NCBI GenBank assembly: GCA_040954595.2
Contig: CM082586.2
Location: forward strand, 6,434,509-6,498,508
DNA length: 64,000 bases
Reading direction: 5' to 3'
Source of the DNA: Balanoglossus misakiensis
Lineage: Eukaryota > Animalia > Hemichordata
The notes under the pieces were generated by a model that searched no databases, was not told the DNA's origin, and saw nothing but the letters and a program-made list of their open reading frames with translations. Position 1 is the stretch's first letter. Every line of letters begins with the position of its first letter. Positions 1 through 55,370 of the stretch are shown one piece after another. The position numbers were made by a program, and so were the translations under genes.

Positions 1-3000
1 GATGCAGCCTTTGAGACACACTTCATCAGATATCTAGAGAAATGAAAAAAAAAACTTTCAAAAATTATCCTATATATAAGGGCAGCTCCATATCACGTCC
101 ATTGTTGCATGTCAAAGGTCAACTGAAATGTATGTGCAGTTGCCAATATATTATTTTTTCTTGTGCGTACATCTTATGTCCTGTCATTTGGTGATTTATG
201 TCATCTTTTTTCTGTTATGTTGAAAGAGAAATGGAAAGGCGATGGCAGATTTTGAACGGTACAGTTCACAGCCATCCATTCTTCTTGTAAGTTGTAAACT
301 ATTACAGTGCATTGCCGTGCGTGCGTTGCCGGGGCACGTATCATGATAGTGTCCATGGCAACCTGGCCTAAGAGGGCGCCCTTCACCCGCCATCACCTTG
401 CTGTCTGCAGCATGAGCACACTGTACTCTCCTTCCACGGTCACCAGCGCAGTTGCTCCACTGTACAGCTTGGGAAACCCGCTAGCCTGAGAGTAGCCATG
501 GCCACCACACGACAACCGCAAAACTTCTAATCCCCAGTTTGCGGTCAAAGATGAAAAAGCCTTCATACCAGCAGACAGGCCGTGCAACTGAAAAATCAAT
601 GTCCATGTTTTGATGTATTTTAGTGCTTTGCAAAATGAACAAAATTACAATTATCTACTGTGGGAATCAAGAATTATTTGACAGGGTATTCATAGCCCAA
701 TTTCTGAGAAATACAAATTTCCATAAAGCTGCGTATTATGCACATAAACAATGTCAACAGTAACATTTCCAATTAATGTACGAATCAGCCACAAACCTCC
801 TGTAAACTGGATAGATCACCAGCTTTCACGTCTTCTTGTATCTGGTCGCATCGCTTGCGAATATTGTGGGCTGCAAATTTGAATGCATATGTTGCGGCCA
901 ACTGCGGGAACAGTTTGAGTTGCTGCGACTGGTAGTCAATAATCTGTGGTTCTTTGCCCCTGTAGAAAGAAGTATGCTTCTTATCTCTGCCAGACTTCAT
1001 TTTTCGTATAACAGTTATGCTGTGCAACTTTTGTTTAATTCGATCCACCAAATTCTCTGTTCAAAGTGTTCTCACATTACAATGTATGCCCGTGCACAGG
1101 TTATGAGAACACATACCTGAGATATGACTATTAGGTAACTATTTAATAGTCCAGCAAAACATAATACTGTAATAATAACAATAAATTCCCATCGAAAAGC
1201 ATTCAAATAACCCCCCTTAGAAATGTTGAGAGCATGAATAGAATCAAAAACCATGGTAACCATTCCACTCACCCTGGGGTCAGTTCAGTCTGTCTCCTGA
1301 CAGCACTGTACCTTGTAGCAATGGTGCAACCAGAAGCCAGAGTTCCGGCAGCCATTGCAACTATGCTGACTCTGGTCAAGACCATGCCTACGTACACCAT
1401 CTTGTCGCTGATTGGAGGATGGTAGGTGCCATCTGTGTCTATCTGAAAGGGACGAAACAATATACAAATCAAGAAGTAAAGGTGTTTTTTTACATGAACT
1501 GAAAGCAGCGTAGTTGCATGAATTCCTATTATTCCAGGCATATTACCTTTGCGTACTTGGAAAGTAGATTTTCTCTCGGAATTCTGACATGATCAAATCT
1601 GCAGAAACCGTTGTCGTTGCTGTTCATGCCCGTTTTAGGACCAATGTCCCCAGTTATGACACCTGCCAAAAGAGACATAGAGAAGACTTGAAAACCAATC
1701 TTCGCAACTTTTTTAAGGTGCAAAATGCAAAAATGAATAATTCTTAAAAAATCAGATGCCTTGCAAGACTGAATGGAAAAATGTGTCTGTCTGATAAATT
1801 GGGTTTAAAGATATGTAACACTGATCCATAGATTACACTTGTCTTCTTTATAAACAGGTTCTGTGTTGATATTTGGGATTAATTTCAGTACATGACAGAT
1901 TTCAGGAAGTGCTGTACTAATTACTCATTCATGTAGAAACATTTTCTATGCTACAGTCCCATATCTACATTACAGATATGCTCCCTACGTACCTGGCAGA
2001 AGTTCATGGTTGTCGAATCTTCTCAACGGTACAATGAACGCATGAAGGCCGTACTTTTTGCCTTTTGAATACAACTGGGCCATCAATATAGCACAGTTTG
2101 CAGACCGGCCCACTGAAAGTAAAAGGGAAAATTTCACAGATCCTGACCACTGTAAAGTATTGTATCACATAAACATGATACGGTGTGCTGTGATACTCAA
2201 TGTAAAGGCAGAATGCAATAGACATACTTCACCATAATATGCAGGATACTGGAGTATTTAACAATGTTGTCACTATTGGCTGTGGGATTTTGCACTTGAC
2301 AATCCATTGTCAAATACTGAGAGGATTTTTGATGCAGTACAACAGTGTCCTTTACAGGAATTTCATATAATTTCTGAAAACTAAAGGGTGTCACCCAATC
2401 TGCAAGATGCGGCAAAAATAACTGCTCGATCATGAACAGTACTATGCTTAGCAACACTTACAATATCCAGGCCACCATTTTGTGGATGACAATGTCGGTG
2501 AATTGATGACAAATTCTTCTGTGCTGGGGTCGTAGGTCGCAGTTGTCTCCAAACCACGAATAAATGTGCCTACAAGATAGATATAAGAGTGAATAGTTAC
2601 AAGACTTGATGAGTCAACAGGTTATGGAAATATGATTATGGAGAAATCAACCAGAACTGTATTGCGTCTAAAAGCCCTGGACACTAGCCCCAACTCCATC
2701 CATAAACCTATCCCTGATAGGTGGGAAAATATTTGGGGGTACCAATCCTGATATTTGGTCTTTTTCTCACCGTGGCCAAGTTCAGTCTGCAGGTAGGTCC
2801 CGATGACTTCATAATTCAATGCCTTTGGCAACCATTTCTTTCTCTGTGCATCATCAGCTTGCGTCTGCAACATCGGTATCATCATGAGATCGTGTATTGC
2901 AAATATACTGCCCTCCCCACGCAGGGCTGCCCTGTGAGAAGAAAAAAATGACTGTGATTCGCCTTTTTCATAGAGAGGGTGCCCTTCCATGACGACAGAA

Positions 3001-3984
3001 AAACAAGGCTAGTAGGTCACAGCGTAAAAACTTTATCGTCTTGTACGTGTGTCTTCGCTATAGTTGCTTCTTTTGCTCACCCTTTGTAAATGAGTTGGTC
3101 CGACAGATCAGTCAGGTTCAGTCTCTTCATTTTCTCCACAAGAAGAACGGATCCACGCACAACATTTGTGTAATTTTCATCGCGAGTCAAGAATGAGGGA
3201 TCTTCTGTCTTGAAGTCTGGATCGCTCAGAGCCAACGATTCTGAAAGTAGTAAGAAAAAAATTCCATAAAAATAACAGTGATGTCACTTGGCCCATTCAT
3301 TTCAACATTTTTGTATCAGGCCTGGATGGTTTGTTTACTTTATACCCTAGGGGGCAAAGTCACCCACTATTATGTAACATCTAGTACAACTACACATGTG
3401 AGTTGAGCTGGGACACTGATCATCAAGCTATGTTTCAGTGAGCGAAATTAAATAAAATTGATCTAAAATTATGATCGAAATAATATTCAAAGTGGGCGAC
3501 TGTGGCCCTTTAATCGAAAGTGATACCCCCCCCCCTTTTTTTCCCCAGGTACTAGGTCCTGGTCTGCGGGTCAAAGTTCATTTGTTGTGGTCATGATGTG
3601 CAAGAGTGGGGAACACCCCGTTTTGGTAATTGGAAGGTCATTTTCAAAGGTGTATAAATATTGTACGAGGCGCTACACTTTCCCCGGGCATTCGCATGAG
3701 TTTCCCGGCTCTGTAACAATGTTCTGCGGTGCCAGTGGCATACAAGTCACCGTGGCTGAACAGTTCGTTCACCCGTAAAGCCGAAGTACAAGCATAAGTG
3801 CAACAGAGTACACATATGACTATGATTGATTGACGCGTGATTCTTTGAAGCATTATTACTTACGAATGTACCGTCGCCTTCTGGTGTTTTCAGCCCCTCT
3901 TTCAATAATGTAAGTTAGCTCTGTCGGGTCAAACGTGGCTCTGATCCGCTCTTTTTGCAAATCAGGATTGACTTGCGTCGCCAT
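1..3984 (-). CDS. ACOX1: Peroxisomal acyl-CoA oxidase 1-like, paralog A (exons 1-10; 3' end lies beyond the left edge)
   Basis: Exons, all GT-AG and in frame: 3864-3984, 3081-3240, 2771-2931, 2462-2569, 1993-2112, 1547-1662, 1273-1442, 797-959, 397-587, <1-33. Translation starts [13 protein letters not shown] and contains [41 protein letters not shown] and the catalytic-Glu motif [13 protein letters not shown]. Confidence 0.95.
3568..3580 (+). promoter_or_regulatory. DR1 nuclear-receptor element (PPRE/HNF4/RXR type) in ACOX-A intron 1
   Basis: GGGTCA-A-AGTTCA, a full match to RGKTCA-N-RGKTCA. Confidence 0.5.
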
Positions 3985-4370
3985 GATTGATTCCAGGGGA
4001 CCTTTGACCCCAAGTGCAGTGAGACCCAAAGGTCACGTGCACCGGGAACCAATGATGTGATGTGAAGTGTCAATACATAATGGCTGGAGATCTTTTATTT
4101 TATTTTATTTTATCTTATTTTATCGTATTATAATTTCAATTAAACTGACAAGAAAGAGAATAATGAACGTTCGCATCATGCGCTGGTCCTTTTGTAAATC
4201 GCGGGTCATCGCGCACTTCCGTCGTCTGCTACTGCGCAGAGCAATCTGGGATAGGATTTCAGACGACAACATATCGCCATCATCATCTCCATCTCCCATT
4301 ATCATCACCAGTACCACCGTCTGCGTGCTGTTGTTGTCGTTTTTGAAGTGCTGTATCCCTTACCAGGACG
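3985..4370. promoter_or_regulatory. Probable bidirectional promoter and 5' UTRs shared by ACOX-A and ACOX-B
   Basis: Only 386 bp separate the two divergent ATGs. Contains DR1 GGACCT-T-TGACCC (3998-4010), CAAAGGTCA (4027-4035), E-box CACGTG (4034-4039) and a CCAAT near 4049. Confidence 0.7.
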
Positions 4371-7300
4371 ATGGCGATGTACAGAAGCACAAGTGACGGC
4401 ACTCGGGTGAACCCTGATTTGCAAAAGGAGAGAGACAAGGCGTCTTTTGACCCGACAGAACTGACCTACATAATCGACGGAAGCGCCGAGAAGACAAGAA
4501 AGCGGCGTTACATTCGTGAGTTATTTTGCATGATTTATATATCATTGACATACTTGGAGGCTATGGGGGGGGGGAGGGGTGTACTTTCACAGAAGTGTTC
4601 TGCGGCACTGAGTCCACTTGTCACGTACTGGGAATTAGTTTTGAAAAGTGCCAGGGTCACCATGACCTTTGTTGTCCTCATCTCAGGTCACTCCACGGTC
4701 ACTCCAGTGACCGTGGCCAATTTTCCATTTATTCAAGGCACAAGCTTAGAGACCTGGGGTTAGGATTCTTAACTGACAATATTTAACCTTTGGAGCGTAG
4801 TTTGGAACTTGCCCCTTGTGCCGCATTGGTCAGTGAACCCAGAAAGATGGACTTTGGCAAACCTATTAAACCCTTTAAGTATTTGTACTTAGTTGACCAA
4901 GGACAGACCCCTGCACTACTGTAACAAAAAGTGTACCTGTAAATAATGGCTATATAGTTTAAAATAAAAGTTTTAAAAAATGAAAATGACGCAGGAGGTT
5001 GTCAATGTGCCTACCACCATCAATAAAGATCCAAACTTTACTGTCCAAGATTTAAATGCTGACCATTATGCATTCGCTACATGAAAAAAATTGTAAAAGC
5101 AAGATAAATGTCACATACTTTGCACTGTTGTTATTATTTTTTCTAGAATCTCTTGTTTTCAGTGATCCAGATTTTGATGAAAAAGACGTCTCCTTCTTAA
5201 CACGCGATGAACATTACACAAGCATTGTTAGAAGATCAGTACACATTGTGGAGAAAATGAAGAAGTTGAACTTGACTAATCCATCAGATCAAATCATCTT
5301 CAAAACGTAAGTGAATATGACGTGAGTGAGCTAGCGGGAAGGGTATATACGAGGCTATAATTGAGAAAAATATTCAGTATAAATTTCAAAAGTTGTAATG
5401 AAGTTATTTATTTTGCTCACAGGGCAGCCCTGCGTGGGGAGGGCAGTATATTTGCAATACACGATCTCATGATGATACCGATGTTGCAGACGCAAGCTGA
5501 TGATGCACAGAGAAAGAAATGGCTGCCAAAGGCGTTGAATTATGAAGTCATCGGGACCTACCTGCAGACTGAACTTGGCCATGGTAAACTAATCATTTGC
5601 ACATATTAAACTTATTCTAACGATAACATTTCAATTCAATTATCTGTAAACTTTTTCGGATGCCATCTTTTCGCAAGTCAGACTGTCCAATCATGTATGG
5701 TTTAGTGTGGATTCTTTCAACAGAAGAACTGTATTTTATCACAATTTTATACAGTTTTTGCATTATTTGATAAAGAAAATTGTGACTACGGTATGTTTCC
5801 AGTGCGAACTATCAACTCTTTTAACTATCTACGGTGTGTACAGGTACATTCGTTCGTGGTATAGAGACAACGGCGACCTACGACCCCAGCACCGAAGAAT
5901 TTGTCATCAATTCACCGACATTGTCATCCACAAAATGGTGGCCTGGATATCGTAAGTGTTGTGTTGCTAAGCGTAGTACTGTTCATGATCGAGCAGTTAT
6001 TTTGGTTTTCTTCATTGGATAAATATGTTTACTAAGCATAGTATGTACATTGTGAGTTAACAGTATCTTGCAGATGGGCTGATACACTTTAATTTCCATT
6101 GATTCTATCTTTTATTTTCAGTGGGTAAATCTGCAAACTGTGCCATATTGCTGGCCCAGTTGTATTCACAAGGAAGAAAGTATGGCCCCCATGCTTTCAT
6201 TGTACCGTTGAGAAGATTCGACAACCATGAACGTCTTCCAGGTATGTGTAATAATCCCGCTTAGTAAAATATGAGGCTGCTCTAAGTAATATTATAGCAA
6301 GATACTGAATTTAGTCCTGCCTCTTCTAACGAAAAATAAGAAAACTGTTATAGGTTACAGAAGATAAGATCTACCACTTCTAACTGATACACATGTACAT
6401 AGTGTAACTTGCACGTAATTGACAGTTTTGGCCGTTTAATTTATATGTTCTTGGAATTTTATGTCAGCGTACACTACTCCTTTTATTAGGCATAACTCTG
6501 GGAGATATTGGACCAAAATTAGGCCTGAGTAGTAACGACAATGGTTTCTGCAGATTAGATAATGTCAGAATTCCGAGAGAAAATCTACTCTCAAAGTACT
6601 CCAAGGTAAGCACTATTTGTTACATATAGCTCATAGATTTCCTTGTTTGTTCAGTCGAGTTCTCTATCTGGTACAGAAAGACTGAAGAGATATGTGTATT
6701 ATCCCTTACAGAAACTTTCTGCAGACATCTATAGAATTCTATAGCCTATTGAATTTCTATAGAGATTTATAGAATTTCTGTAGACATCTCTAGTGTATTT
6801 TGATACAAATTAGAATTCAAATGTGCAATAAAAAGAAATGACGATGCCTTTTACGTTTTATACAGTTATGTCCAATTTCTCAATGGAAAAATAATTTGCA
6901 TTGGTTGTGTGCACCAGTTGTTCTGTTAATACTTTTGTGTTGATGGCATGACACAGATTGACGCAGATGGCACCTACCATCCCCCAATCAGCGACAAGAT
7001 GGTGTACGTTGGCATGGTGTTGACCAGAGTCAGCATAGTTGCATTGACTACCGGGTGTCTGGCTGCTGGTTGCACCATTGCTACAAGGTACAGTGCTGTC
7101 AGGAGACAAACGGAACTGACCCCAGGGTGAGTGGAGTGGTTACCATGGTTTTTGATTCTATTCATTGTCTCAACATTTCTAAGGAATGTTATTTGAATGC
7201 TTTTCGATGGAAAGAAATTTATTATTATTATTACTGTAACAGTATTATAGTCATATCTCAGGTATATGTTCTCAAAACCTGTGCACGGGCATACATTATA

Positions 7301-9996
7301 ATGCGAGAACACTTTGAAGAGAGAATTTGGTGGATCGAATTAAACAAAAGTTGCACAGCATAACTGTTATACTAAAAATTAAATCTGGCAGAGATAAGAA
7401 GCACACTTCTCTTTCTACAGGGGCAAAGAACCACAGATTATTGACTACCAGTCCCAGCAACTCAAACTGTTCCCACAATTGGCCACGGCGTACGCGTTCA
7501 GATTTGCAGCCATCAGCATTCGCAAGCGATGCGACCAGATACAGGAGGATGTGAAAGCTGGTGATATATCCAGTTTACAGGAGGTAAGTTTCCTTTCATT
7601 TTAAGCCCCAAGAGCTGCCACTTTTGCATTATTTTCATGATTTTACTTTCCAACTAAGATCGATCCATCTAAACAAGCTTACTGGTAGCATGTACGTTCA
7701 TGAACATTTTATTGACGCCTGTTAGTGTCAGAAAATGTATTCAGTGTTTTTGCTAAGGTTGGGGAACATTGGTAATGGATTTGGGAACCCTGGTAACATT
7801 TCTACAACCCCCTAACTACATTGATACACCCTGGGGAACCCCGGTAAAATGACTGGGGAACTCCGGTAGATTTTACCTAGGTACCGCCCTTAACAAAAAC
7901 ACTGGTATTTGTGAACTTGTATGTCAACAATAACGGTGAATTTACAACTATAAACATGCACTGAAAATTAGTACATGTAAAACAGTCAATGTGCAGCCAT
8001 TCATATTCTGAAAACAAAAAATACATGCACTGAAAAAAAAGCAAACAGTCATTTTTTTTCTACAACAATTCATTATAGTTATTTTTTTTTCTACAACAAT
8101 TCATTATAGTTGCACGGCCTGTCTGCTGGTATGAAGGCATTTTCATCTTTGGCCGCAAACTGGGGATTAGAAGTTTTGCGGTTGTCATGCGGCGGCCATG
8201 GCTACTCTCAGGCTAGCGGTTTTCCCAAGATCTATACTACGAATACCGCCTATGTGACTGCAGAGGGGGAGTACAGCGTTCTCATGTTGCAGACCGCCAG
8301 GTATAAGGTTACAGTAGCCATGCCACTATTGCATCTAGTTACGTGATAAACAATACTTCTATGTCCGTAAATCAATACATTTGACAGGCGACTAGTGGTT
8401 GTAGCTGTGTATCAACTCCTAAAAGCATTGCATTAAAATATCCCCAATTTTCGCAATTCAATACATTTGATACCTTTCCCGACCTCATAGCATGGATTAA
8501 GGCTAAATATACAAATAGATATTCGTCAATTATGACACTTGAGGACTAGATCAATAGTTCCCTTCTTTCTTTCTTTGCTCTAGGTATCTGATGAAGTGTG
8601 TCTCTAAAGCTGCATCTGGGGAGAAGTTGCCAAACAACATGACCTATCTGACAAGAAAACCAGAATCCAAGTGTCCAGCTGAATCTGAACAGGACATTCT
8701 GAACCTTGGTCTGTTAGTGGATGCATACAGACACAGAGCTTACAGGTCAGGATTTTGTTTTTGTATAATCTGCTCCAGTTTCTAATATATTTAATATCAT
8801 TGGTATTTGTTTGACGGGGTTGTTTGACAATACTCTTTCTTTCTGACTTCACAGAATAGTACATGAAGCTGCTCAACAGATGCAATCTGGATTACTCTCA
8901 GGCAAACCACAACATGTCGCATGGAATGATGCTCACTTGTATCTCATCAAAGCGGCTGATGTAAGTCACTCAGTCAACAGATTTTCTCAACCTTGTCTTT
9001 AATTCTGGATACTTTAATATCCAAGTTTTCTAGTTTCCATGATTTGCTGAAGGAAACTGTCATCCAAGCTTGTTGTAGTTTCTGAATGAATTACTGATTT
9101 TTTTTTTTCATTTTAATGACAATCTTTTTGTTATTTCTTCCCAGGCACATTGCCACTATTACACTGTGATGAACTTTGTAGAGTTTCTGAAATCATCAGA
9201 GATGTCGCAGGCCCTGAGGGATGTATTGACCAGTCTGTGTCAGCTCTATGCTTTATATGGCATTGAGAACAATGCAGGCGATCTGTTACAGGTATGGATT
9301 GTGTATTGAAAGTCACTCAGGCACAAACAGGTATAATAATGACCAGACTTTTTCAGGTCTCTGTGCGTTGTTAATGTACATTTTGCATCAGGAGACAGAC
9401 AATTTGGTTGACACAGAGGCCTAAGGGGAGATGACCAAACTGGACAAAACTTTGAAAGAGGGCAGCAGTAGCATTTAAAATTCAAACACAAAAGACCTAA
9501 TGAAAACCCACTCACTGCTGTCTTCTCAACTACAGGATGGCTACATGTCTGGTGATCAGGTGGCCATGGTAACCAATCAAGTGGCTGCATTGTTGGAGGT
9601 GATTCGTCCCAACGCCGTCGCCTTGGTAGATGCCTTTGACATCCATGATGAAATGTTAGGATCCATACTTGGGAGATATGATGGCAATGTCTACGAGAAC
9701 ATGTACGAGTGGGCCAAACGGTCCCCACTCAACAAAACTGAGGTGGGTGGACGTAAACTCATATTCTTGTGACTTTTTCCCCATTTTTTGAATGCTGAAT
9801 TTGTTGTCCTTTTTACGGTGCGTTAATGCTTATTGTTTTGGATATTTTAAAATGGTGATTTTTTGAACTTTGATTAACAAAAAACAAATATATAAACAAT
9901 TCATTTTTATATTTATCTATTATACAGGTTCACCATTCATATCACAAGTACTTGCAGCCTCTGTTGCAGGCAAGCCCTGCAGCTGCCAAGTTGTAA
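4371..9996 (+). CDS. ACOX1: Peroxisomal acyl-CoA oxidase 1-like, paralog B (complete, 14 exons, about 674 aa, C-terminal PTS1 -AKL)
   Basis: Exons 4371-4515, 5147-5306, 5423-5583, 5844-5951, 6122-6241, 6490-6605, 6957-7126, 7421-7583, 8110-8300, 8584-8745, 8855-8960, 9145-9291, 9536-9742, 9928-9996 (sum 2025 nt). Same ACOX motifs as A. Ends [22 protein letters not shown]. Confidence 0.96.
4654..4713. promoter_or_regulatory. Cluster of nuclear-receptor half-sites (IR3/ERE-like and DR5-like) in ACOX-B intron 1
   Basis: GGGTCA-cca-TGACCT (4654-4668); AGGTCA-ctcca-CGGTCA (4685-4701); TGACCG (4708-4713). Confidence 0.45.
7742..7904. mobile_element. Small non-autonomous DNA transposon (MITE) in ACOX-B intron 8
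   Basis: Terminal inverted repeats (TIRs) CAGTGTTTTTGCTAAGG ... CCTTAACAAAAACACTG. Four internal TGGGGAAC..GGTA repeats. GTATT lies on both flanks. Confidence 0.7.
8051..8111 (+). repeat. 30/31-bp tandem duplication of the ACOX-B exon 9 splice acceptor
   Basis: A(T)nCTACAACAATTCATTATAGTT occurs twice in succession. Confidence 0.9.
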
Positions 9997-10607
9997 GATG
10001 TGTATGGCTGGCGGTGTTTATCAACTCAACATTTCAGTTCTTTTGAAGAAACAGAAAGTTAGATGGTGCTCTTAGAACATCAGAAATCTTTTTAAGTTCA
10101 GAAGTTTGAAAATTCTTGTCAATCATGAAGTCATGACTGCATGTAGTCATGCAAAGGATCCCTCAACCGATCTCTGAGCATTATTTTTACATGATGTTTA
10201 TGATTTTCCTGAGTTAACACAAAGGAATATTTTTAAAAGATATATGGGAGATCCTCTTCATAGAAGATTATTTTTACAGGCTCCTGTAAGAAACAGGATT
10301 AGATAACGGTGTTGTAACTGAAATTTAATTGGCAAGAAAAACTGGTTTAACCCTGATATAAAACTGCAGCACATCAATGAGTTTTAAACTCTGTATTCAT
10401 GTATTTCTAGTATCTCTCAATTTATATACACTATTTTAATAGTGTGGGGACTGGGGATATTTACAATATCCACCATTTGTATGATTTCTTCTGATATTTC
10501 CATTGCAAGTAAGCCTATTTACAATCAGTAAGAGAGGAATTTATAATTTTCGCAATATCCTCTTTTACACACTAAACAGTACTGACAACAAAGATTTGTA
10601 TATTTCA

Positions 10608-10613
10608 AATAAA
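10608..10613 (+). terminator. Candidate polyadenylation signal of ACOX-B
   Basis: AATAAA about 610 nt after the stop, followed by a GT/T-rich tract. Confidence 0.5.
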
Positions 10614-10987
10614 ATACTGTTTAACAAATTTGTACGTCTGTAATTTTGTGTATTGTCAAATTGAAGTTTTGAGAGATTGATGATTCTGAGTATTTCAGGT
10701 GATGTTACAGTTTTAGAGGCAAAAAAAAAGGCTTACAGAAGCTACCAATATTTATTTTGACAGATTTAGTGGCTTGTATGTGCTGTGTTGTGTGTGAGAA
10801 TTTTTTCTCAAGTCAAATGTCAACTCAAAAGTTGGTTGATATTTTCTTATTAATCCTTGAAAAATAAGATTCCAATTCTACTTTTTCAGTTAGGGGCTTC
10901 TAAAATACTGTGGTATTTGATAAGTGAGCACTTTTGTCACATTCCTAAATGCTATATTTTTCCTCCGGTGAACAGCTCAATGCAAAC

Positions 10988-11152
10988 CCCCACCGCCTCC
11001 CCCCCCCCCCCCCACCCCCGGCCCCGCGCGTCACTTTTGAAAGGGTTGTGCGTTTCCTGTGCAGGCGTTGTCGTCTGCTGTTTTACGCACTTCCGGGTAT
11101 CCCGGCGTGCTCAGCGAATCTGCTGCAGTCGACAGATTACAAAATGGCCGCT
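10988..11152 (+). promoter_or_regulatory. GC/CpG-rich promoter and 5' UTR of ACOX-C
   Basis: Poly-C tract, ETS-type ACTTCCGG (11089-11096), and YY1-like AAAATGGCCGC overlapping the ATG. Confidence 0.5.
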
Positions 11153-14100
11153 GTGCAGGGCAGATCCACAGTCAAGCAGCCGCCGGTAAATCCCGATTTA
11201 CAGAAAGAGCGGGACAGTGCGACGTTTGATGTGTATGAACTCACAAATCTAAAGGACGGTGGCGAAGATCGGACCATTAACCGACGAAAATGGCGTAAGT
11301 TAACTGCTCGACGTGCGTCGATCATCGTGCAAGGGTCGAAGGCCCAAGTCTCACTTTGCTCAATTCCAAAGTGGAAACGCACCTTGCAAAGATGTCCATG
11401 GCATGAAAATTTCTCACTCAAAACAAGAGATATCGGGCAGGTCTTTTGAGACGTCCGCCGAGAGTTTAACGTTCACTAACTCAACGAACTATATAATACA
11501 GGAGGCTGTACATGTTGTTGCTGAAGAAAAGTTCGTTGACATTGTGACCTTTAACCCTGCTGTGTGTTCCCCAAGCGTTACACTTCGGGACCTGTACAAA
11601 GGGCTAGACGACCTTTAGTCATGTGTACGTGTATATCGTGTAAATGTAGACGGCATAAGTCGATTGCTGCGAACAGAGTCCACCTGCACATATTATGAGA
11701 CACGTTTCTTTACATGGGCAAATGAGCAGAGAGGAAAACACTGTTATGTTTATAAATGTAAATGTACTACACTGACTCCAGAACCCCTTGCCTCCTGTGA
11801 CTGTATGAAGTTTGTTAGCCTGGTCTCCGTACCCAGTGTGTTTTAGATAGATCCACACTGGGTTTGGAGACCGGGCTGGAAGTTTGTTTGCCACACCGTG
11901 CTTGATTGTTTGTTTGTTACATCCTTTCCCTTCCGCAGAATCCGTGGCCCTGAACGATCCCGAACTGAAACACAAACCCGTGGCGTTTATGACCAGAGAT
12001 GAGAGATACACCAACGCAGTCAAGAAAGCGGTGTACGTCACCAAAAAAGTCCAAGAGTATGACATCAACGACATGGAGGAACAGCATTGGTACAGAACGT
12101 AAGTTCATTTACAAAATTGGCACATTTATTCTGACTCCATCTTTTATTCGAGAGTGAAACACGTGAAAGATATTTGTAGCTCATCATTGTTTCCATAGTA
12201 TTGTAAGAAAGAGATTTCAAGGAAAAGGCACTTGAGCAAAGAATCTTAGTTTAGATTGTATCAACTTCCAGCTGCTCAGTGTTCTCCCCAGAACAATACT
12301 AGTATTCTTTCATTTTTGAAAAACAATAGAAACTGATTGTCATTACATTGTTATGATAACAATCTATTGTTTTTCAAAAACGAAAGAATATTGTTCTTAT
12401 GCAATTTAGCCAACAAATTCTGGATTTTTACATTTTTTCTATTTTTTTTTTTTACAGGGCTGCCTCGAAGCAGGATACATATGGCTTTGCATTGCACTAT
12501 GCAATGTTTTTACCGACACTGAACCAGGGTGATGAAGAACAAAGAGACCACTGGGTTCCTTTGGCCAGAGATCTGAAGATCATAGGCACTTACGCTCAGA
12601 CAGAGCTTGGACATGGTATGTGTGCATTGTGCAATAATTAATTGACACCATTTTACATTTTATCCACAGGACGAGATCATGCAAATTCTGATGCCAATTT
12701 CTGATGTTTTACGTTATTTCGTTATCATTTATGGGCTTCAAAGGATGAAAAGCCAAAGTATCAGAAATTCCTGTGAGAACTGAACACGCAATAAGTTCCA
12801 AAGGTAAAAAAAAAAAAATCTCTAAAATTCTATAAATGTAATTATTTTCCCAACTTGGAACAGGTACGTTCATCAGAGGCCTGGAGACCACAGCGACCTA
12901 TGACCCCAAAACTGAAGAGTTTGTTCTGCATAGTCCCACAGTGACATCCCTCAAATGGTGGCCTGGAAATCGTAAGTACGCCAAGTAGGGAATCCTGTTT
13001 TTTTTTAGAGTTAAAAGGCCAACGATCGTCTCATGCACATGCGCCAAACCAGAGACTCCGGTTACATACATTTTATACAGTCAATGCCATAAGGTAGTGT
13101 GCTGTCCTAACAACAGACAAGATGGTTGCTGGCCTTTAGCATAGTGAAATCTATTTCAAAAGCTCATTTGGAGGAGTTCAGTAAATGCCAAAACAGTGAC
13201 TTAATACCTTGATGGGTATATATGCACACACATGGACTTAAACAGTTTTTAATTCTTGTTGTCTGTAAAAAGCAAATACTACTACTGAAACATTGTTACT
13301 TTTACTGGGTCTGAGAGTTGCGTGTATTTTCATCCGTATTTCAGTTGGCAAGACAGTGACACACGCTGTGGTTTTAGCTCAGCTGTACACCAAAGGTGTG
13401 TGCCACGGTCTACATCCATTTGTTGTACAACTACGAAGTTTAGAAGACCATCAACCGTTACCAGGTAAGGTGTTGTGAAGGGCACGGTTTCAACTGGTTT
13501 TCATCAGACAAAGCTCGAAGCTCCCAATGTACTTTTTATTTATTACTCAAGGTATCGAGCCCTCTGCAGAATCTTGTCACTTTAAAATAGATTTTTGTCT
13601 ACCTAGGCAAGTGATAGAAAATCTCGTGCAATAAAATGGTAGTCATGTGGGTCACATGACAAAAAATGACACGTACCACCTGACATTGATTTGGCCAATC
13701 AGAGAACAGGAAACACTGATGAACTACCTGGTAATTGCAAATATGGATGCTTCTTGTTGTCAGGTATAAGCTTAGGTGACATTGGACCAAAACTTGGCTA
13801 TAACAGCAACGATAATGGATTCCTCGGCTTCGACCACTTCAGAATACCCAGAAGAAACATGTTAATGAGATATTCAAAGGTACGGGTACAATTCTTTTGC
13901 TGTTATCCGAATTATACAATTGGTGGGTACCTGTAGCTAGATGGAGATGTAAACTGTGTCTATTAGCTTTTATATGTAGTGAAGCCACAGGTCAAATTGC
14001 TTTGATTCTCAGTTCCCGCTGTAGCGGTCCAACCTTGCCACAAAAAGGGGGTTCGGACCAAGCCACTCTTGCTTTGTCAAACAATTTAAAACTATGTGGA

Positions 14101-17100
14101 TAAATAGTAATAATTGTCAGTTTTTTCATGATCTGTGTAATAGTGGGGAGCTTATATAGTTTTGCATGGAGGGCAAGGTATATGGTGATTATTCGTGCTA
14201 ACTAAACAATGCAAAGCAAATCTTAACATTAGCCGGCAAACTAACTAACATTTTGTAAAGTAACCTTTGCAAATTGTTCTGGTTATTGTCAGACACATCA
14301 ATTATCTAGAGCCTTCATTTCTCATCATAGGATGCTTTTGTGACCTGTTGCTGCCATTCTCATGCATTGTTGCTGCATTTCTGTGACTAACGGCAAAATA
14401 ACAATATATAAATTCTGCATTTTTGGCATATCTGTCGCACCTTGCTTTCCCTGTCACACGCTGTAGGTCTTACCCAACGGGACGTACTTTAAACCGGAAG
14501 TTGAGAGAATCAGTTACGGCACCATGGTGTTCATCCGCGTCATGATCGTGCAGGACGCGGCGGAATCGCTGGCCAAGGGCACGACTATCGCGGTCAGATA
14601 CAGCGCAGTCAGACGACAGACAGAGCTGACCCCGGGGTAAGAGTACATTTCGTCTCACGTTCGCTCGCTCGTCTTCTTTGCCAGGTTGATGCCGACGGCA
14701 CCTACACCAAACCGCCGGTCGCTAGACTGTCCTACGGCACGATGGTTCTGGTGCGTACCAACATCATCATGGGATCCGCAAGTTTCTTGGCGTGCGGGGT
14801 TACCATCGCCGTGAGATACAGTGCCGTTCGAAGACAAACTGAGATCACGCCAGGGTAAATTTCTCGATCAGCAGTCGGCCTTTTTTTTTTTTTGGAGTCG
14901 TGGTTGGTACATGTATTTATGACTTCAACCATTTCATCCCCCAGTTCCCTCTATAGAGGTCCAACCTTGCCATCGTAAACAATGGGCTTGGACTAAACCA
15001 TGTAACGTCTGTAACCAGCGCAGCGGCTACAGCTGGAACATGGGTGTGAGACGAGCTAGGCGCTTTAAATCATTTGTTAATTATAACCTGTCATGAGATA
15101 TTCATGAAAGCAAATTAAACATCTTGCTTCAGTTCTCCAAGTTTCTTTCTCCGCCTTGTTGATTTCAGCGGCGAAGAGCCACAGATCCTGGATTACCAAT
15201 CCCAACAGATGAAACTCTTTCCACTGATTGCCACGGCGTATGCCTTCCTCTTTGCCGCCTGGACCACCAGACTGCGTTACGTGGAAGTGCAGAGCGAAAT
15301 CTTCAGTGGCAATGCCAAGTCATTACCAGAGGTAAGTAAGGCATGAATTGGTTCAATCTCTGTTATCCAGACCCCAAATTGAGGCTACCGAGATCCAAGA
15401 TCTGTGTCGCCCACTTGGTTGTGACTGCTTGGCTTACTGTAAAACACTTTATTTTTGCGAGTTAAAATATTCGCGATATTGAGAGAGGACACTGTTTCGC
15501 GAGTATTAATTTTCGCGTTCTTTTATTTCATTCACTGCATCGTTATCTTCAAAAACAATTTACGCGACTTTTTATTTTCACGCTATTTTGGCTCTCGCGT
15601 ATTTGGCGAAAATTAATTGCTCGCGAAAATAAAGAGTTTTACAGTAGATCTGAATGTTTCTTCCTTTATTTCTCCAGTTGCATGCTCTGTCAGCCGGTCT
15701 GAAAGCATTCACTTCATACGTGATGAACGAAGGCATTGAAGTGTGTCGTATGTCCTGTGGTGGTCACGGTTACTCCAGTGCCAGTGGTTTCACTGAGCTC
15801 TATGGACTGGCCACCCCCATGTGTACTTACGAAGGCGAGAACACTGTCATGCTTCTACAGACAGCCAGGTTAGTGTCATTTCAAATTCTATCTATTTCCA
15901 CCAAATCTCATTTTTTTTACTACCATAGAATCGACAGACACTACTGCCTATGGTCTTACATTCAAAATTAAGCGTGAGATGTTTTAACCCTAATGCTACT
16001 GGGTGTCATACCTGTTTAGAGTGTCAAGTCCCTTAAAATACGTATTTGCCACTTTTTCTTCTAAAACGTATTTTGACACACTGGCAGTCTGGGCCCCCTG
16101 TAAAATGTACCAAATCACACAGGTTTGCACTGTATTGTTCTGAGGGTCCAGTATAACACACACTTGGCAGCCTAACAGGCCTTAAGCCAGGATTCTAGGC
16201 CCCCTGGAAATCAAACCAGTTTCAACTGACTTGGCAGCGTTAGGGTTAATCCATTGCTTTCCCTTATCTCAGATACCTGATGAAGTGTGTGAATGGGGGT
16301 TCTGCTGGAGAGGATCTGCCGGGGATGATGAAGTACTTGAGTCGCAGCAAGAAGGGAAACTGGTCGGCCAAAGAGGACTCGGATGTCATGAATCTGGACT
16401 TGCTGTCTGAGGCATACCAGCACAGAGCCTACAGGTGAGTGTCTTTTGTGCAGTCAGTACATGTTGAAATGTTTGAGTGTTGTTTGGCAAAGATTTTGTT
16501 CTTGAACTGTCATGTGTTGCTCTAAAATCTTATCGGTCACTACTCACAGAAGTTCTTGAGAAATTAATTTTGGAATGCCATCAAGACTTTTTCAGCCATA
16601 TTCTTCTATCTGAAGCCTGATATTAAGTCAATTTTATGGGTGACCCACATTAAGCTTTTTTGGACAGTGGATGCTGTTAGCCTGGCACCAGTCAATAGAT
16701 GTATGCTGTTTCCCTTGACAGGTTGGTTGTCACTGCAGCGGGAAAAGTGAAAGCAGAATTGTCCAAGGGCAAACCACAGCACGAAGCGTGGAACAATTCC
16801 CATATCTATCTTCTGAAAGCTGCCTCTGTGAGTAACCTTTACGAGCAGACTGCGTGTACCTCAGCTGACAGCTGTAGTGATTTTTAAATTGTCTTTGGGA
16901 TATGTTTGGATTGTTTATTGATAAAATTCCAGTGAAAATTCTTGTATTTCCCCAGGATATATCAAATGAAAGTATATTGTTCTGCATTCAAATAAGTTGA
17001 TTTCTACAAATACTTTGTTCCATAAATCTTAGTTCAAGTAACATGCATAATCCTCATCTAATTATTCTAACATATACATTCTCTTCATTTTTAGAGAGAA

Positions 17101-18545
17101 AAACTAACCTACTTTTAGTAGTTTTACTGTACAACTATAAAACAAAAGTCTGTGATTATTTGGATAGATATGTTTGTCCGTTTCTGTACTGTCACCTGTG
17201 GAAATAAGGGCTCATATTTTGTCTGAATCAATGTATAGTATCAACGAATATCTGTTTTACAACTCTGTTACAGGCCCATTGCCATTACTTTGTGGTGCAG
17301 AACTTTGCCAACTACATCAAGACGACCGAGATGAGTGATGCAGTCCGTCAGATACTGACCACGCTGTGCCAGCTCTATGCTCTGCATGGAATAATGCAGA
17401 ATTCCGGTGACTTCTTGATGGTGAGTCGTCTACTGTGTTATAGGACACCCCTTTCACCACCGTGGTTTGGTCCAAATCAGTTGGTGCCTGTGGTGAAGTT
17501 GAACCTCATTGTTAAAGGGATATTAGCTGTAACTTTGAGCTTTAATTTCAGTACATGTATTTTTTATTCTGTGTACCAGATGCAATTGTTTCTACTCCAA
17601 ACATCATGATAATATACCCTGTACTCCACTTGTCAACGTAGCCTGTATATGTGTAGTGGTCAATATTATTGTCGACTAATTTAATGAATTCTGGTCTAGA
17701 CCTGAATTCAAATTTGGCATAATGACAAAGTTGACTGTGCAAATACGTGTTGTGTTGATAAGCTAAATGCTGGACATTTCATCATGTTTCAGGAAATTGA
17801 ACAAGAAATTGCGGTAGATACACAAAACAAAAATGCGTAAAACATAGCGAATAGAAAAAGATAAGGGATACTGTTTTGCCACAGAACAGATTTCAGGTCC
17901 GATTATCAACTTTTTTATTTCTTTCACAGGATGGATACATGAATGGAGAGCAGGTTGTCACGGTGCAGAGACTTGTCGGCCATCTTCTGTCGGTGATTCG
18001 TCCGAACGCCGTCGCCCTGGTCGATGCTTTCGACATCCACGATGACCTGCTCGGGTCCGTTCTCGGACGACATGACGGTCACGTCTACGAAGCCCTGTAC
18101 GAGTGGGCCAAACAGTCGCCACTCAACGAAAATGAGGTGAGTCAATACTGCCCTCTTGTGTTGAGAGGGAGTCAGCGTTGTTCAGTGTATAACGAATGTA
18201 ACAAAGTTAATCTGCGTATTTTTGTACGCCACATTTTTTCAACCTGAAGGTCTTCTCGCGAAATTGATGCTACAGTCCAACCTGAGATAGTGGCCACATT
18301 GTCTTTGCAGTGACCACTTTCTTATGGTCCCTTTTCAATTAAAATGCGCGTTAATTGACCTGTCTATAAAGGCCAATTTAGGAAAGTCCCTTGACTGGCC
18401 ACTATAGACAGGATCGACTGTAATTGCTGTCTCCCCCCCCCCTTCCCTCCCACTCCCCCTCCCCTCCCCCCAACCCAAACAGGTGCACGAGTCATACTAC
18501 AAGTATTTGCGCCCCATGGTACAAGGTGGCAAAGCCAAGCTGTAA
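11144..18545 (+). CDS. ACOX1: Peroxisomal acyl-CoA oxidase 1-like, paralog C (most canonical copy, about 673 aa, PTS1 -AKL, duplicated exon 7)
   Basis: Exons 11144-11294, 11939-12098, 12458-12615, 12864-12971, 13345-13464, 13764-13879, [14467-14636 or 14685-14854], 15169-15331, 15678-15868, 16273-16434, 16722-16827, 17274-17420, 17930-18136, 18483-18545 (2022 nt with one exon 7). Motifs [39 protein letters not shown]. Ends GGKAKL*. Confidence 0.96.
11545..11557 (-). promoter_or_regulatory. DR1 nuclear-receptor element in ACOX-C intron 1
   Basis: TGACCT-T-TAACCC, which reads GGGTTA-A-AGGTCA on the minus strand. Confidence 0.4.
14467..14636 (+). CDS. ACOX1: ACOX-C alternative exon 7a (170 bp)
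   Basis: ctgtag acceptor, gtaaga donor. Encodes [57 protein letters not shown] with no stop. Confidence 0.92.
14685..14854 (+). CDS. ACOX1: ACOX-C alternative exon 7b (170 bp)
   Basis: tttgccag acceptor, gtaaat donor. Encodes [57 protein letters not shown]. Same length and phase as 7a. Confidence 0.92.
15437..15644. mobile_element. Tc1/mariner-type MITE (family 1, copy 1) in ACOX-C intron 8
   Basis: TA on both flanks. TIRs CTGTAAAACACTTTATTTTTGCGAG ... CTCGCGAAAATAAAGAGTTTTACAG. Close copy at 29066-29270. Confidence 0.88.
15988..16245. mobile_element. piggyBac-type MITE in ACOX-C intron 9
   Basis: TTAA on both flanks. Termini CCCTAATGCTAC ... GCAGCGTTAGGG. Confidence 0.65.
18273..18420 (-). 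mobile_element. Tc1/mariner (pogo-like) MITE (family 2, copy 1) in ACOX-C intron 13
   Basis: TA flanks, CAGTC...GACTG termini. Right end is nearly the reverse complement of 28441-28480. Confidence 0.8.
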
Positions 18546-19404
18546 ACTGGACCCAGGGTGACCTCGCAACAATACTGCTTTTCCTCGCCAACCAAAAATG
18601 CTGCAATCATCACCGAAGATAAGTATGGACAACGGACATTTACTCTATGATAATAATAAACTGAAAGTGGGATGACTCATTTAAATTTTAGAAAAGTGAT
18701 TTGAAAACGACTTGCAATTACTTCAAAAGAAGATATTGCCTGCAGTTATTGACAGAAGAGATTTGTCTCAAGGGACATTTTAAAAGTGCAGTAGCTTATT
18801 GATTTTAACCACGGTTACTAGAAGATTTAACTGTACAATGTACTTTGTGAATATTTTAACTACAGACACATGCAGTACATGTATACATATATTTTATCCT
18901 ATACTTTATATGTGTAAACATCAGCGCAAGCATTATGCGATTAAGTGACTGTCAGTCGTGGAAAGTCTTTCCGCAGTTTGTAAGGCTTCAAATCAAAACA
19001 ATGGCGAATATGGTGTCTGAAGACATCCCCTTCGGCACAAAAACAGTCCAAGTGGGAATGGACTGTGGCCAAGAAAAGGTTGATTTGTATATTTGATGTG
19101 GTAGTACATGATTTGTATAGTTTGAAGATCATGAAGATGAGGGAAAGTAAAACAAAGTTGTCTGGTGGATGATTGACACTAGCTGCTAGCTGTCTTTCAT
19201 GATGTCCATTGTTTTCAATAGCAATACAGGACTTTTATACAGGGAAAAATGGGTGTAAAAGGGTTAAGGACCAATATTTTTCTCCACAATGGAGACCCAT
19301 GAATACAAATGTTGGTCTTTCAGTATAAGCACATGTATTATGAAAGAAACTTTTTATATCGACCATCGAATACAGATCGTGGAGGAAACATCAAATATGT
19401 AAAT

Positions 19405-34900: not shown

Positions 34901-37900
34901 AGCGGTTGCCGTGGTGACCAGTGAGTGATGCTGGGGAGACTTATACTCAGATTGTCCAGATGTGTTGTTACAAATGTTATGGAAGCACCTGGATGCGAGA
35001 TGTTATGGGAAGGAAATCTGGAAAAATTTTCGTGGGAAAAAAATCCATCTTCGGTCACCAGTTCTAAGTTTTGCATTAATACTGGAGATTTGGTTTGTGT
35101 GCTTTAACAGCAGAGTACTATATTCACTCCTTCTATGCGTATTTGTCGCTGAGTGAACAGCTACCTCTCAGAGAGGCTGTGAGGCAAGCTCATGTTCTTT
35201 GTATACTAAACCACATAATGAATGTTGCAATCACCATCCCACAATACAGCTTACGAGGGAAGCAGTTGCCAACAGCAAAACTAGGGACTCTCGGTCTGAT
35301 CTGATTGGCTATGCCGTGATCTCTCTCTCTCTATATATATACATAACAGCTGATCTGCATAAAGACCTTTAACTTGTTGATAAACAGTATTTATGGAAAG
35401 AGTGAAAAATATCTTACCCGCCACATCTCAGTATACATCTGTGGCCAAATAAACACTGCCAGTGATATTTTCTGTAGTTTGCACCTTGAACATTAGTCTT
35501 AAAGTTTTTTTCTTATACTAGTATTGTGCTCCAGGCAACGTGAATGAAAGATCCAAATTGTCTCAATTTTGGAATTCAAAATGGCCGCCAATTAATGCAC
35601 TATCTGTATGTGATTTTTACGAAAAAGGGATGGTAAATACCTTGTTTTATTTCTTCGTTTTCAAAAAGACCCTTGACATACCGAAAAGAGAAAGAGAGGA
35701 ATTCTTGAAATGCACTATCAGTTTCATCAACTGCATTTGTGTTTTAGAAGTATAAAAATTGACCTTGAAATTCAACAAAATTGCTGTAAATACTAGCACT
35801 GCCATGTTGTAGTTCATGTTCCAAGCTTTTCACTCCCACCTATTTACTGAAATATATCTATCCACTAAAATGTAAATAAATACATTCACATGATTTACCT
35901 ACAATTGCATGTACACAGGCATTGCTTTTTCTGGGCATTTCAGTTCAAAGTTTATCATTTTTGAAGTTCATTTACTGTTCATGCCTTGTAATATAGCAAG
36001 CATAGTTTGTTGTGTTACGTTCATCATGTATCAAAAACTCACCCCTTTCACCATTATGGTTCAGTCCAACATGCATTGTTTTCTGTGGTAATGTTGGACC
36101 TCTAAAGTGGGAATTGGGGGTGAAAGGTATAAGCATTTAGCAGAAGATTTGTTGGTGTACAGTTTGATTCTATGCCCAATAGAGCCAAGAAAAGCAGTTC
36201 TTACAAATTTGGTGTGAAGAAGCTCAGTTGATCGGAAATACAAAGTTCTTTCTGTACTTGCTGGTAACATTTGCCAAGCATTTGAAGGAAAACTGTATTT
36301 ATCATGTGGAAAAGGCTGTAAAGTGACGTCATCGATTCTGTATATCTCAGATTTTGCCTGTGCCGTGACTCTCTTTCAAGAGTGACAGTGAATGGAGTGG
36401 GCATGAACTGGCCATGCGATCCCCAAGAATCTTGGGTGTCACCGTTTGGTTCGACGATGACGTTCTTGAAGTCGCACCACATTAATTGTGAAATTAATAA
36501 TGAATGGCAGTTCACATGTCAGATTGGACCACAGCGAGAGATTCAACGAAATATGATAGTTTCAAATTACATGTGACTTTAAGAGCTTCAAATTACATCA
36601 TGTACATGGTAGAGCTCGAGCTACAGACAGAAAAGGCGTTTGCAAAAGCGCCCTCAAGAGATTTGTAAATAAATTACCTTGTTTTTACAGATATCGCCAT
36701 TTATTTTCACCCATACAGCAGTTATGATGTCTGTATTTTGAACGTGTTCCACCACTTGTAATTTATAAAGTACTAAACTGATAGTTCCTGTTGAAGTTTT
36801 GTGTCGTCTTTAGAATAAACAAGGTTTGATCTAAAGTATTCCTTTGTATCTACATTCTGCGGAAGTTTTTTTGTTGGAGTTATTGGGAGCTCATTATTAG
36901 ATTTGATGCAAGTTTGAGTATATTGGGAAATCCTGTGTTTCTCTCATAACATGATCTGTGATACTGATAGCATGGAAATTATCACAAGTCACTACTAAAC
37001 AAGTTCTCGTGCTCAGAAAGCTTGTATGCACAACTCATGCGTTCGTCTAGAATTTCAGCATTGTCACTTCAAGCATAGACTGTGTTCTCGTGGGTCCGTG
37101 TTTCAAGCAGAGCCGTGGCGCGGAAAGAAGTATCTTGAAAACAAGAGGCAACTTAAGATATAACTCTAGGTGGCGCCATAACTTGTAAACCCCACAGTAA
37201 TATGAAGTCAACATTGCCAGACCACTAAAAACGGGTAAAAACAATTCAAAAGAGTGTAATCAACTAATATTTATGACCCCAAGTGACCCTGCCAATAAAC
37301 AAATGGCCTCTACAATAATGACGTTTTGTTTGCCGTCTACTCTTGCTGATTCTCAAATATTTGCGTTCGAGTGACACCGAATTTAGGTCAGATCACCAAC
37401 TACAGATTACAAACTGCTCGCATTGCCTCTTGAGACACAGTACTGCACAGTGGGGCTTGCCCGTTTAAACAAATGCCAAATTCTTCAAGTTTTATTGATA
37501 GATATATTACATTGCCGTCATATATCGTTTTTGAATGTTTGTTCGCAAGGTCAAAGATGCGACGATAACAGAATCCAATTTTCAGTGGCAAACTGCAAAA
37601 TATCGCAGTAGTGTGATCTACACGACAATATTGATCTAGACATTACATTATAGATAGGAAAAAATGCATGCAAATTATCTATATTCTTATCATGATAGAA
37701 GGGAAATTTTTCAGTTTACACTCGTTATGTCGAAGCATCGTATCTGAGCTTGTTGTTTGAACTGGAAACATGGACATTGCAAGTGAAATTGCATAAGGTT
37801 TTGACGACCATCTTCAGCTGTTATTTATAGCATCGGCTCTATAAAAGTCTGAAAACATTCCAAATCGCATGCCATCATCACAACGACACATAAAGGCAAT

Positions 37901-44100: not shown

Positions 44101-44156
44101 CTTTTCGCTGCTGATGGAGACAATGAAGATGAGGAGGAGGAGGAGGAGGACGACGG

Positions 44157-44206
<50 letters not shown>

Positions 44207-55315: not shown

Positions 55316-55370
55316 GATCGGCGACGCTACTGGCTCGAGATCTGCGCACCTGGTACCGCGCAAGCTGTTT

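What the first reader, a model, noticed from the sequence alone, without database searches (positions are those of the whole stretch)
14467..14854. Tandem mutually exclusive exon 7a/7b in acyl-CoA oxidase: a splice switch on the substrate pocket, distinct from the vertebrate exon-3 pair
Seen: ACOX-C has two intact 170-bp homologous exons (37 of 57 aa identical by hand count), each with its own acceptor and donor. The intron between them is only 48 nt (14637-14684), with a branch-point-like CTCAC about 20 nt from the 7a donor. Including both exons or neither shifts the frame (170 is not a multiple of 3), and retaining the intron gives an immediate stop (CCG GGG TAA). Differences concentrate in the helix [19 protein letters not shown] versus [19 protein letters not shown], while [14 protein letters not shown] is invariant. 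Established: vertebrate ACOX1 tunes chain-length preference through mutually exclusive exons 3I/3II, and very short donor-to-branch-point spacing enforces mutual exclusion sterically (as in alpha-tropomyosin). Here exon 3 is single-copy. Inference: an independently evolved isoform switch that changes acyl-CoA specificity. I know of no description of it, but I could not search.
Basis: partly seen in the sequence, partly recalled or inferred. Interest (0 to 1): 0.9.

Follow-up and report, generated by a model that had tools for sequence, protein, structure and literature searches.

The report
Acorn-worm oxidase swaps its pocket wall
A fat-oxidising enzyme gene of an acorn worm carries two intact copies of exon 7, both also annotated as isoforms in a related species, and likely splices in one or the other to swap one wall of the predicted fatty-acid pocket, a different exon from the one that vertebrates and many other animals switch.

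Summary
Confirmed. The third ACOX1-like gene of a tandem cluster (ACOX-C, 11144-18546) has two intact 170-bp exon-7 copies 48 nt apart. Either copy gives a 673-aa ORF; both, neither or intron retention give early stops. The gene groups with enteropneust hemichordate ACOX, sister to Ptychodera flava. P. flava RefSeq isoforms X1/X2 differ only in exon 7 (14 aa) and pair best as 7a=X1, 7b=X2, so the pair is conserved. No RNA run was listed, so splicing in this species is untested. Exon 7 encodes the helix equivalent to acyl-CoA dehydrogenase helix G. Five of the 7 positions matching LCAD's helix-G active-site residues differ between 7a and 7b; this mapping is indirect. Exon 3 maps to the opposite wall, helix E. 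Exon-3 isoform sets turned up in 15 species (lampreys, echinoderms, an annelid, mussels, Glandiceps); an exon-7 set only in P. flava. So this is a textbook kind of splicing at a new site in a gene that keeps evolving such switches. Changed specificity is inferred, not shown.

The parts
11144..18546 (+). ACOX-C, peroxisomal acyl-CoA oxidase 1-like gene, 14 coding exons plus the duplicate exon 7; 673 aa, C-terminal AKL
   Evidence: spliced model open with either exon 7; 79.5% identical to P. flava P0003; sister to the P. flava genes in the tree
12458..12615 (+). exon 3 (single copy here); encodes the helix-E side of the pocket; the exon duplicated in vertebrates and many invertebrates
   Evidence: LCAD chain 91-161 aligns to profile 95-165
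13764..13879 (+). exon 6, common upstream exon (donor after 13879)
14168..14179 (+). intron-6 element predicted to pair with the 7a polypyrimidine tract (12 bp)
   Evidence: mean pair probability 0.99; p 0.01 against shuffles; conservation untested
14439..14466 (+). 7a polypyrimidine tract and acceptor (weak; 14439-14450 in the predicted stem)
14467..14636 (+). exon 7a, 170 bp, aa 272-328; closest to P. flava isoform X1 (46 of 57) and nearer than 7b to the vertebrate exon-7 sequences
14637..14684 (+). 48-nt intron between the alternative exons; branch-point-like A at 14657; shortest of 35 ACOX introns in the window (next 104 nt)
14685..14854 (+). exon 7b, 170 bp; groups with P. flava isoform X2 (41 of 57); longest branch of the four copies
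15041..15055 (+). downstream-intron element predicted to pair with 14649-14663 (7b branch-point region), looping out 7b
   Evidence: 9-bp core, pair probability 0.63; 15 bp with G-U pairs, p 0.013; conservation untested
15169..15331 (+). exon 8, common downstream exon
4377..9996 (+). paralog ACOX-B (context), single exon 7 at 6957-7126
397..3984 (-). paralog ACOX-A (context; exons 1-9, the rest lies beyond the window start), single exon 7 at 1442-1273

Best explanation
Exons 7a and 7b are a tandem-duplicated pair, conserved in Ptychodera flava, that is likely spliced mutually exclusively to give two equal-length acyl-CoA oxidases whose swapped helix is predicted to line the fatty-acyl pocket and would change which acyl-CoAs are oxidised. 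Shown: the anatomy, the frame logic, and the matching pair of annotated isoforms in P. flava. Inferred: joint inclusion is blocked because the 7b branch point lies about 21 nt from the 7a donor, and any double-inclusion or double-skip transcript carries an early stop. Inferred: exon 7 is the helix-G wall, so 7a (Met26, Asp30, Ser34, Lys37) and 7b (Asn26, Gly30, Phe34, Cys37) reshape the pocket while the invariant Arg24 and RYSAVRRQ block are kept. Speculative: two long-range RNA stems, each hiding one exon's 3' splice region, help choose the exon.
For: Anatomy and stops. P. flava XP_070533284.1 (X1) and XP_070533285.1 (X2) are both 676 aa and differ at 14 residues, all in exon 7. The quartet (7a,X1)|(7b,X2) has bp-RELL 0.93, with 3 isoform-diagnostic sites (L/D2, F/L22, M/N26) against 1 species-diagnostic site. 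Selection on both copies: codons 40-56 have pS 0.84 against pN 0.04; whole exon pS 0.73, pN 0.30; codons 22-39 pN 0.54. The AlphaFold model of X1 (pLDDT 89.7) puts the exon on helix 287-322, the first helix after the beta domain, and has the ACOX1 fold (7q84 Z 57.4, rmsd 2.0 over 614; LCAD 8w0z Z 20.4, rmsd 3.1 over 362). LCAD helix G carries the catalytic E291 and cavity residues 294, 295, 298, 302, 305, 306 (PMC11153573). These map to exon positions 23, 26, 27, 30, 34, 37, 38. Five of 7 differ in the window (P 0.045-0.064), 4 of 7 in P. flava (P 0.05), and 4 of 7 in both species (P 0.02-0.03). Precedent: human ACOX1a/b differ in chain-length and dicarboxylate preference (PMC11178532 passages); donor-to-branch distance under 50 bp is the steric criterion (PMC5740500 passages).
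Against: There is no read-level evidence in this species, and the P. flava isoforms are annotation models whose support I could not see. The topology with separate duplications in each species is disfavoured but not rejected (p-AU 0.079 and 0.067); 7b-X2 is only 41 of 57 against 39 for 7b-X1. The pocket mapping passes through bacterial dehydrogenases; hhalign has gaps and low confidence in this helix, so I extended gap-free from the Tyr anchor. The enrichment P values are marginal and post hoc, and the varying positions (26, 29, 30, 33, 34, 37) are also the most variable across the 51 exon-7 sequences compared. Stems as stable as the two found occur at 2 of 63 control acceptor-intron pairs. 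Some animals splice introns near 50 nt (recalled), and the minimum for this lineage is unknown.
Confidence: 0.7

Rival explanations
1. Both isoforms are made, but the swap tunes something other than acyl specificity (stability, FAD or oxygen handling, dimer packing) or is nearly neutral.
For: The varying positions are tolerant across homologs (entropy above 3 bits at 26, 29, 30, 33, 34). Six of the 20 differences (positions 2, 3, 4, 8, 11, 54) lie outside the helix. No assay exists.
Against: The Met/Asn26 and Phe/Leu22 contrasts are kept in two species, and the differences shared by both species are enriched at mapped cavity positions.
Confidence: 0.15
2. One copy is a rarely used or decaying spare in this species, so there is no regulated switch.
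For: 7b has the longest branch (0.38, against 0.06-0.20 for the other three copies), and the 7a acceptor is among the weakest (3 of 33 lower).
Against: Both copies are open and full length with near-saturated synonymous sites and conserved codons 40-56, and both are annotated in P. flava.
Confidence: 0.08
3. The pair is real but arose twice, separately in this species and in P. flava, so conservation is not shown.
For: This topology is not rejected at 5% (p-AU 0.079; 0.067).
Against: bp-RELL is 0.04 and 0.08; 7a-X1 is 46 of 57 while 7a-7b is 37 of 57.
Confidence: 0.07

Closest known systems
Vertebrate ACOX1 exon 3a/3b (ACOX1a/ACOX1b)
   Same: Same enzyme subfamily (51-53% identical to human and rat ACOX1); equal-length isoforms from a duplicated internal exon whose length is not a multiple of 3; the swapped segment maps to a wall of the acyl cavity.
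   Different: Exon 7 (helix-G equivalent) instead of exon 3 (helix E); exon 3 is single here; a 48-nt spacer; no biochemistry.
Exon-3 isoform sets of invertebrate ACOX1-like genes in public annotation (echinoderms, Owenia, Mytilus, Glandiceps) and of lampreys
   Same: Equal-length isoforms differing in one exon block; copies mostly cluster by lineage, which points to repeated origins.
   Different: All use exon 3. Only P. flava and this window use exon 7.
Tandem-duplicated mutually exclusive exons with steric exclusion (alpha-tropomyosin type, recalled; 57 human clusters in PMC5740500)
   Same: Homologous tandem exons, donor-to-branch distance under 50 nt, frameshift on joint inclusion.
   Different: Branch point and exclusion are predicted from sequence only.
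Docking-site/selector RNA structures of mutually exclusive exons (PMC6071210, abstract read)
   Same: Long-range intronic pairings flank the cassette, one upstream and one downstream.
   Different: The two best stems use different partners and can coexist in the predicted fold, so they are not shown to compete; no covariation data.

Membership tests
Peroxisomal acyl-CoA oxidase 1-like (ACOX1) | Acyl-CoA_ox_N + beta domain + ACOX_C_alpha1 + ACOX domains, ACOX fold | tested here: met
   Pfam on the P. flava orthologues and on both exons; fold searches with the model of P. flava X1
Peroxisomal acyl-CoA oxidase 1-like (ACOX1) | Catalytic Glu motif and C-terminal PTS1 | tested here: met
   YEGENT motif and terminal AKL in the spliced model; aligns with human and rat FEGENT
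Peroxisomal acyl-CoA oxidase 1-like (ACOX1) | Oxidase activity on acyl-CoA | not testable with these tools
   needs assay
Tandem-duplicated mutually exclusive exons | Adjacent homologous exons of equal length and phase with their own splice sites | tested here: met
Tandem-duplicated mutually exclusive exons | Only one-exon transcripts keep the frame | tested here: met
   the best alternative in-frame joints need weak cryptic donors (score 4.3 or less against 7.5) or weak acceptors
Tandem-duplicated mutually exclusive exons | Junction reads for each exon, none joining them | tested here: inconclusive
   no reads could be examined for this species; indirect support from P. flava X1/X2 models
Tandem-duplicated mutually exclusive exons | Both copies conserved in a related species | tested here: met
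   orthology of the copies favoured, the alternative not formally rejected
Vertebrate-type ACOX1 exon-3 switch | Duplicated exon 3 | tested here: not met
   no second exon 3 in introns 2 or 3
Steric-exclusion MXE | Donor-to-branch distance under 50 nt | tested here: met
   the whole intron is 48 nt; candidate branch A at position 21; branch point not mapped
Docking-site/selector MXE | Conserved, competing intronic pairings | tested here: inconclusive
   two stems at p about 0.01, 2 of 63 controls as stable; no second genome for covariation

The most novel reading that the evidence does not exclude
Animals have repeatedly made ACOX1 a two-specificity enzyme by duplicating an exon that forms a wall of the acyl pocket: helix E (exon 3) several times over in vertebrates, echinoderms, annelids, molluscs and Glandiceps, and, only in the acorn-worm lineage of Ptychodera, the opposite wall, helix G (exon 7). 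Exon choice here would be set by two long-range RNA stems that each mask one acceptor. The two switches would be natural, combinable cassettes that reveal the residue code for ACOX substrate choice.
Probability: 0.35. Interest if true: 0.7.

Novelty: new variant of a known kind. Interest (0 to 1): 0.5.

Why it matters
Human ACOX1a and ACOX1b differ in chain-length and dicarboxylate preference through one swapped exon. A second natural switch on the other pocket wall gives matched enzyme pairs differing at only 14-20 residues in two species, which makes the structural basis of ACOX specificity directly testable. It is also a clean case of convergent alternative splicing that hits one functional site through a different exon, in a phylum with no ACOX splicing paper in my searches. 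The limits: the splicing mechanism is textbook, and both isoforms already sit unremarked in RefSeq for P. flava.

Tried and rejected
No RNA holder was listed for 13700-15400, so no reads were laid; this is no evidence either way. No whole genome is held, so relatives' introns could not be compared. A search for short relatives of the exon 6-8 region listed none closer than 67% among the best 120 of 183 hits.

Idea that 7b came from paralog A or B: 7b is 32 of 57 identical to B's exon 7 against 37 to 7a and 41 to X2, and the exon tree keeps it in the ACOX-C clade; rejected. Idea that the two Saccoglossus ACOX-C genes are a resolved 7a/7b pair: p-AU 0.045 and 0.034; rejected. Timing relative to Glandiceps: three topologies tie; unresolved. 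Hidden second exon 3 or 7 in paralogs: none. The 31-nt direct repeat at 14010-14040 and 14942-14972 has a third copy near 36100, so I read it as a dispersed repeat, not a splice element. A direct exon-7 profile search did not reach acyl-CoA dehydrogenase structures, hence the two-step mapping.

The C. elegans ACOX structure papers (Zhang 2016, 2018) and Oaxaca-Castillo 2007 were not held. I recall that Glu299 limits the ACOX-1.2 pocket; it aligns to exon position 30, but I could not verify the claim and two searches did not surface it. Script slips: wrong ACOX-C start (fixed in 15), a crash (54), and a wrong ACOX-A exon-1 donor (donor scores redone in 86; frame fixed in 93).

Full report
Observation. 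Exon 7a (14467-14636) and 7b (14685-14854) are 170-bp, AG/GT-bounded and open, with 36 of 56 whole codons identical (37 of 57 with the split Gly) and 100 of 170 bases. The 14-exon model 11144-18546 gives 673 aa ending AKL with either exon. With both it stops at 14812, with neither at 15737, with the middle intron retained at 14638. The middle intron is 48 nt, the shortest of 35 ACOX introns in the window (next 104), and its one branch-like motif has its A at position 21. Donors are ordinary; the 7b acceptor is strong and the 7a acceptor weak. Of 12 scans of introns next to exons 3 and 7 in the three paralogs, only the one holding 7b rose above shuffles.

Whose gene. In a tree of 53 proteins built without exons 3 and 7 (543 columns), ACOX-C is sister to two Ptychodera flava genes, then Glandiceps, then Saccoglossus. 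The script printed no support value for the window + P. flava node; the two deeper nodes have 100. The organism is thus an enteropneust close to P. flava. ACOX-A and -B are paralogs with single exons 7; B falls in another hemichordate clade (A was not in the tree).

Conservation. P. flava XP_070533284.1 (X1) and XP_070533285.1 (X2) are both 676 aa and differ at 14 residues, all in exon 7. Identities of 57: 7a-X1 46, 7b-X2 41, 7a-X2 40, 7b-X1 39, 7a-7b 37, X1-X2 43. The quartet (7a,X1)|(7b,X2) has bp-RELL 0.93; the one-duplication-per-species topology has p-AU 0.079 and the crossed one 0.024. Synonymous sites between 7a and 7b are near saturation (pS 0.73), codons 40-56 have pN 0.04, and codons 22-39 have pN 0.54: an old pair, constrained at one end and diverging in the helix. 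That RefSeq isoform models usually rest on transcript evidence is recalled; I did not see their support.

How widespread. I looked up 26 clusters: 6 from the 21 hits, and 20 that I picked from the 120 listed of 4008 hits and, so the sample is biased to deuterostomes. Two clusters listed only 15 of 25 members. Isoform sets of equal or near-equal length confined to exon 3 were found in 15 species: Glandiceps (this gene's orthologue), nine echinoderms, Owenia, two Mytilus and two lampreys. An exon-7 set was found only in P. flava. No fetched protein held two adjacent exon-7 copies, whereas eleven models had merged two exon-3 copies. Exon-3 copies mostly cluster by lineage on a 54-column tree with weak deep support. 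Unannotated copies in these genomes could not be checked.

Where exon 7 sits. The AlphaFold model of X1 (pLDDT 89.7) matches human and rat ACOX1. Exon 7 (residues 275-331) covers the linker hairpin and helix 287-322; it equals rat 259-312. A Dietzia dehydrogenase aligns to human LCAD without gaps over helix G, and hhalign (probability 99.4) pairs the ACOX RYS tyrosine with the dehydrogenase YVKER tyrosine. Extending gap-free puts the invariant Arg24 on LCAD Arg292; hhalign itself has gaps and low confidence here. LCAD helix G (279-317) carries the catalytic E291 and cavity residues L294, I295, V298, A302, F305, M306, and helix E with its preceding loop supplies S130, P132, I136, I140 (PMC11153573, passages and section 8). 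These helix-G residues fall on exon positions 23, 26, 27, 30, 34, 37, 38. 7a/7b read I/V, M/N, I/I, D/G, S/F, K/C, G/G; X1/X2 read V/V, M/N, I/I, D/Q, A/S, K/Y, A/A. Five of 7 and 4 of 7 differ, with hypergeometric P 0.045-0.064 and 0.05, and 0.02-0.03 for differences shared by both species. These tests are post hoc and the same positions vary widely across homologs. LCAD 121-191 aligns to profile 95-165, which places exon 3 on helices E-F. So the two switches map to opposite walls of one cavity. In Pseudomonas FadE1/FadE2, two or three tunnel substitutions shifted chain-length preference (PMC11890623 passages); I did not map those residues onto exon 7.

Mechanism of exclusion. Shown: only single-exon transcripts keep the frame. 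Inferred: any branch point lies under 50 nt from the 7a donor, the steric criterion that PMC5740500 applied to 57 human clusters (passages). Lead only: the 7a pyrimidine tract pairs with 14168-14179 (12 bp, p 0.01) and the 7b branch region with 15041-15055 (15 bp, p 0.013), while the two cross pairings are at background (p 0.29, 0.59). Both stems appear in the ensemble fold. Among 63 control acceptor-intron pairs, 2 were as stable and 3 had p up to 0.02. This resembles the bidirectional pairing model (PMC6071210, abstract and outline), but the stems can coexist and conservation is untested.

Literature. Ten searches; those aimed at prior description were 11, 31, 80 and 88. I saw listings and abstract starts, and none concerned an ACOX exon-7 pair or hemichordate ACOX. 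Searches listed only 25 of 49 and 25 of 932 papers, and none of the 25 mentioned acyl-CoA oxidase. Passages read: PMC11178532 (ACOX1a/b alternative exon 3, conserved zebrafish to human; C10 versus C16/C24, and DC12), PMC9741552 (human ACOX1 event; convergence of such events is common; no mention of hemichordates or echinoderms in the main text), PMC12334608, PMC5986272, PMC8354476, PMC8360864. Supplements were not opened; cross-species exon tables there could bear on novelty, and most subscription papers are outside the library. The scan's own notes hold nothing by sequence or place and one analogous sea-urchin note on another enzyme, not checked.

Verdict. A real, conserved tandem exon pair, very likely mutually exclusive (about 0.9), on a helix that probably lines the acyl pocket; changed specificity is likely but unshown (overall 0.7). 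It works like the vertebrate ACOX1 exon-3 switch but is not a member of it. New variant of a known kind; interest 0.5.

Noticed in passing
P0043/P0161, P0051, P0053, P0060, P0061, P0063, P0092, P0106, P0067, P0118, P0059 clusters: Exon-3 isoform pairs or triples of ACOX1-like genes in echinoderms, Owenia, Mytilus, lampreys (three copies) and Glandiceps (7 aa apart, probably recent). Echinoderm copies form one clade (support 94); the Owenia, Mytilus and Glandiceps pairs each group within their lineage, which suggests repeated origins.
   Followed up: partly
P0003 (P. flava): A recent whole-gene duplicate of ACOX-C whose one annotated form carries an X2-like exon 7 (50 of 57 to X2, 42 to X1): possibly a splice form fixed in a gene copy, or incomplete annotation.
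   Followed up: partly
window 397-18546: Three tandem ACOX1-like genes: A and B head-to-head 392 bp apart, C downstream. A and B have Leu/Thr and Gly where C has Phe/Ile and Lys in the exon-7 helix. The hemichordate ACOX1 family is expanded in all three named species.
   Followed up: partly
P0162, P0054 (Saccoglossus): Two ACOX-C genes whose exon 7 is among their most diverged exons (41 of 57); one has Asn26 like 7b, probably by convergence.
   Followed up: partly
window 14010-14040, 14942-14972, 36093-36120: A short dispersed repeat with copies in both introns flanking the exon-7 pair; 14012-14025 is also complementary to 15026-15039.
   Followed up: partly
window about 41100-55400: Several aquaporin-like ORF pieces (NPA motifs) on both strands, apparently a tandem cluster of about four genes; read by eye.
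   Followed up: no
window about 59700-63100, minus strand: ORF pieces that look like a TRP-type channel with a long insert in a transmembrane loop; read by eye.
   Followed up: no
P0220/P0222 (Branchiostoma lanceolatum): Two models differ by 6 aa in exon 4 only; either a further alternative exon or chimeric models across tandem paralogs.
   Followed up: no
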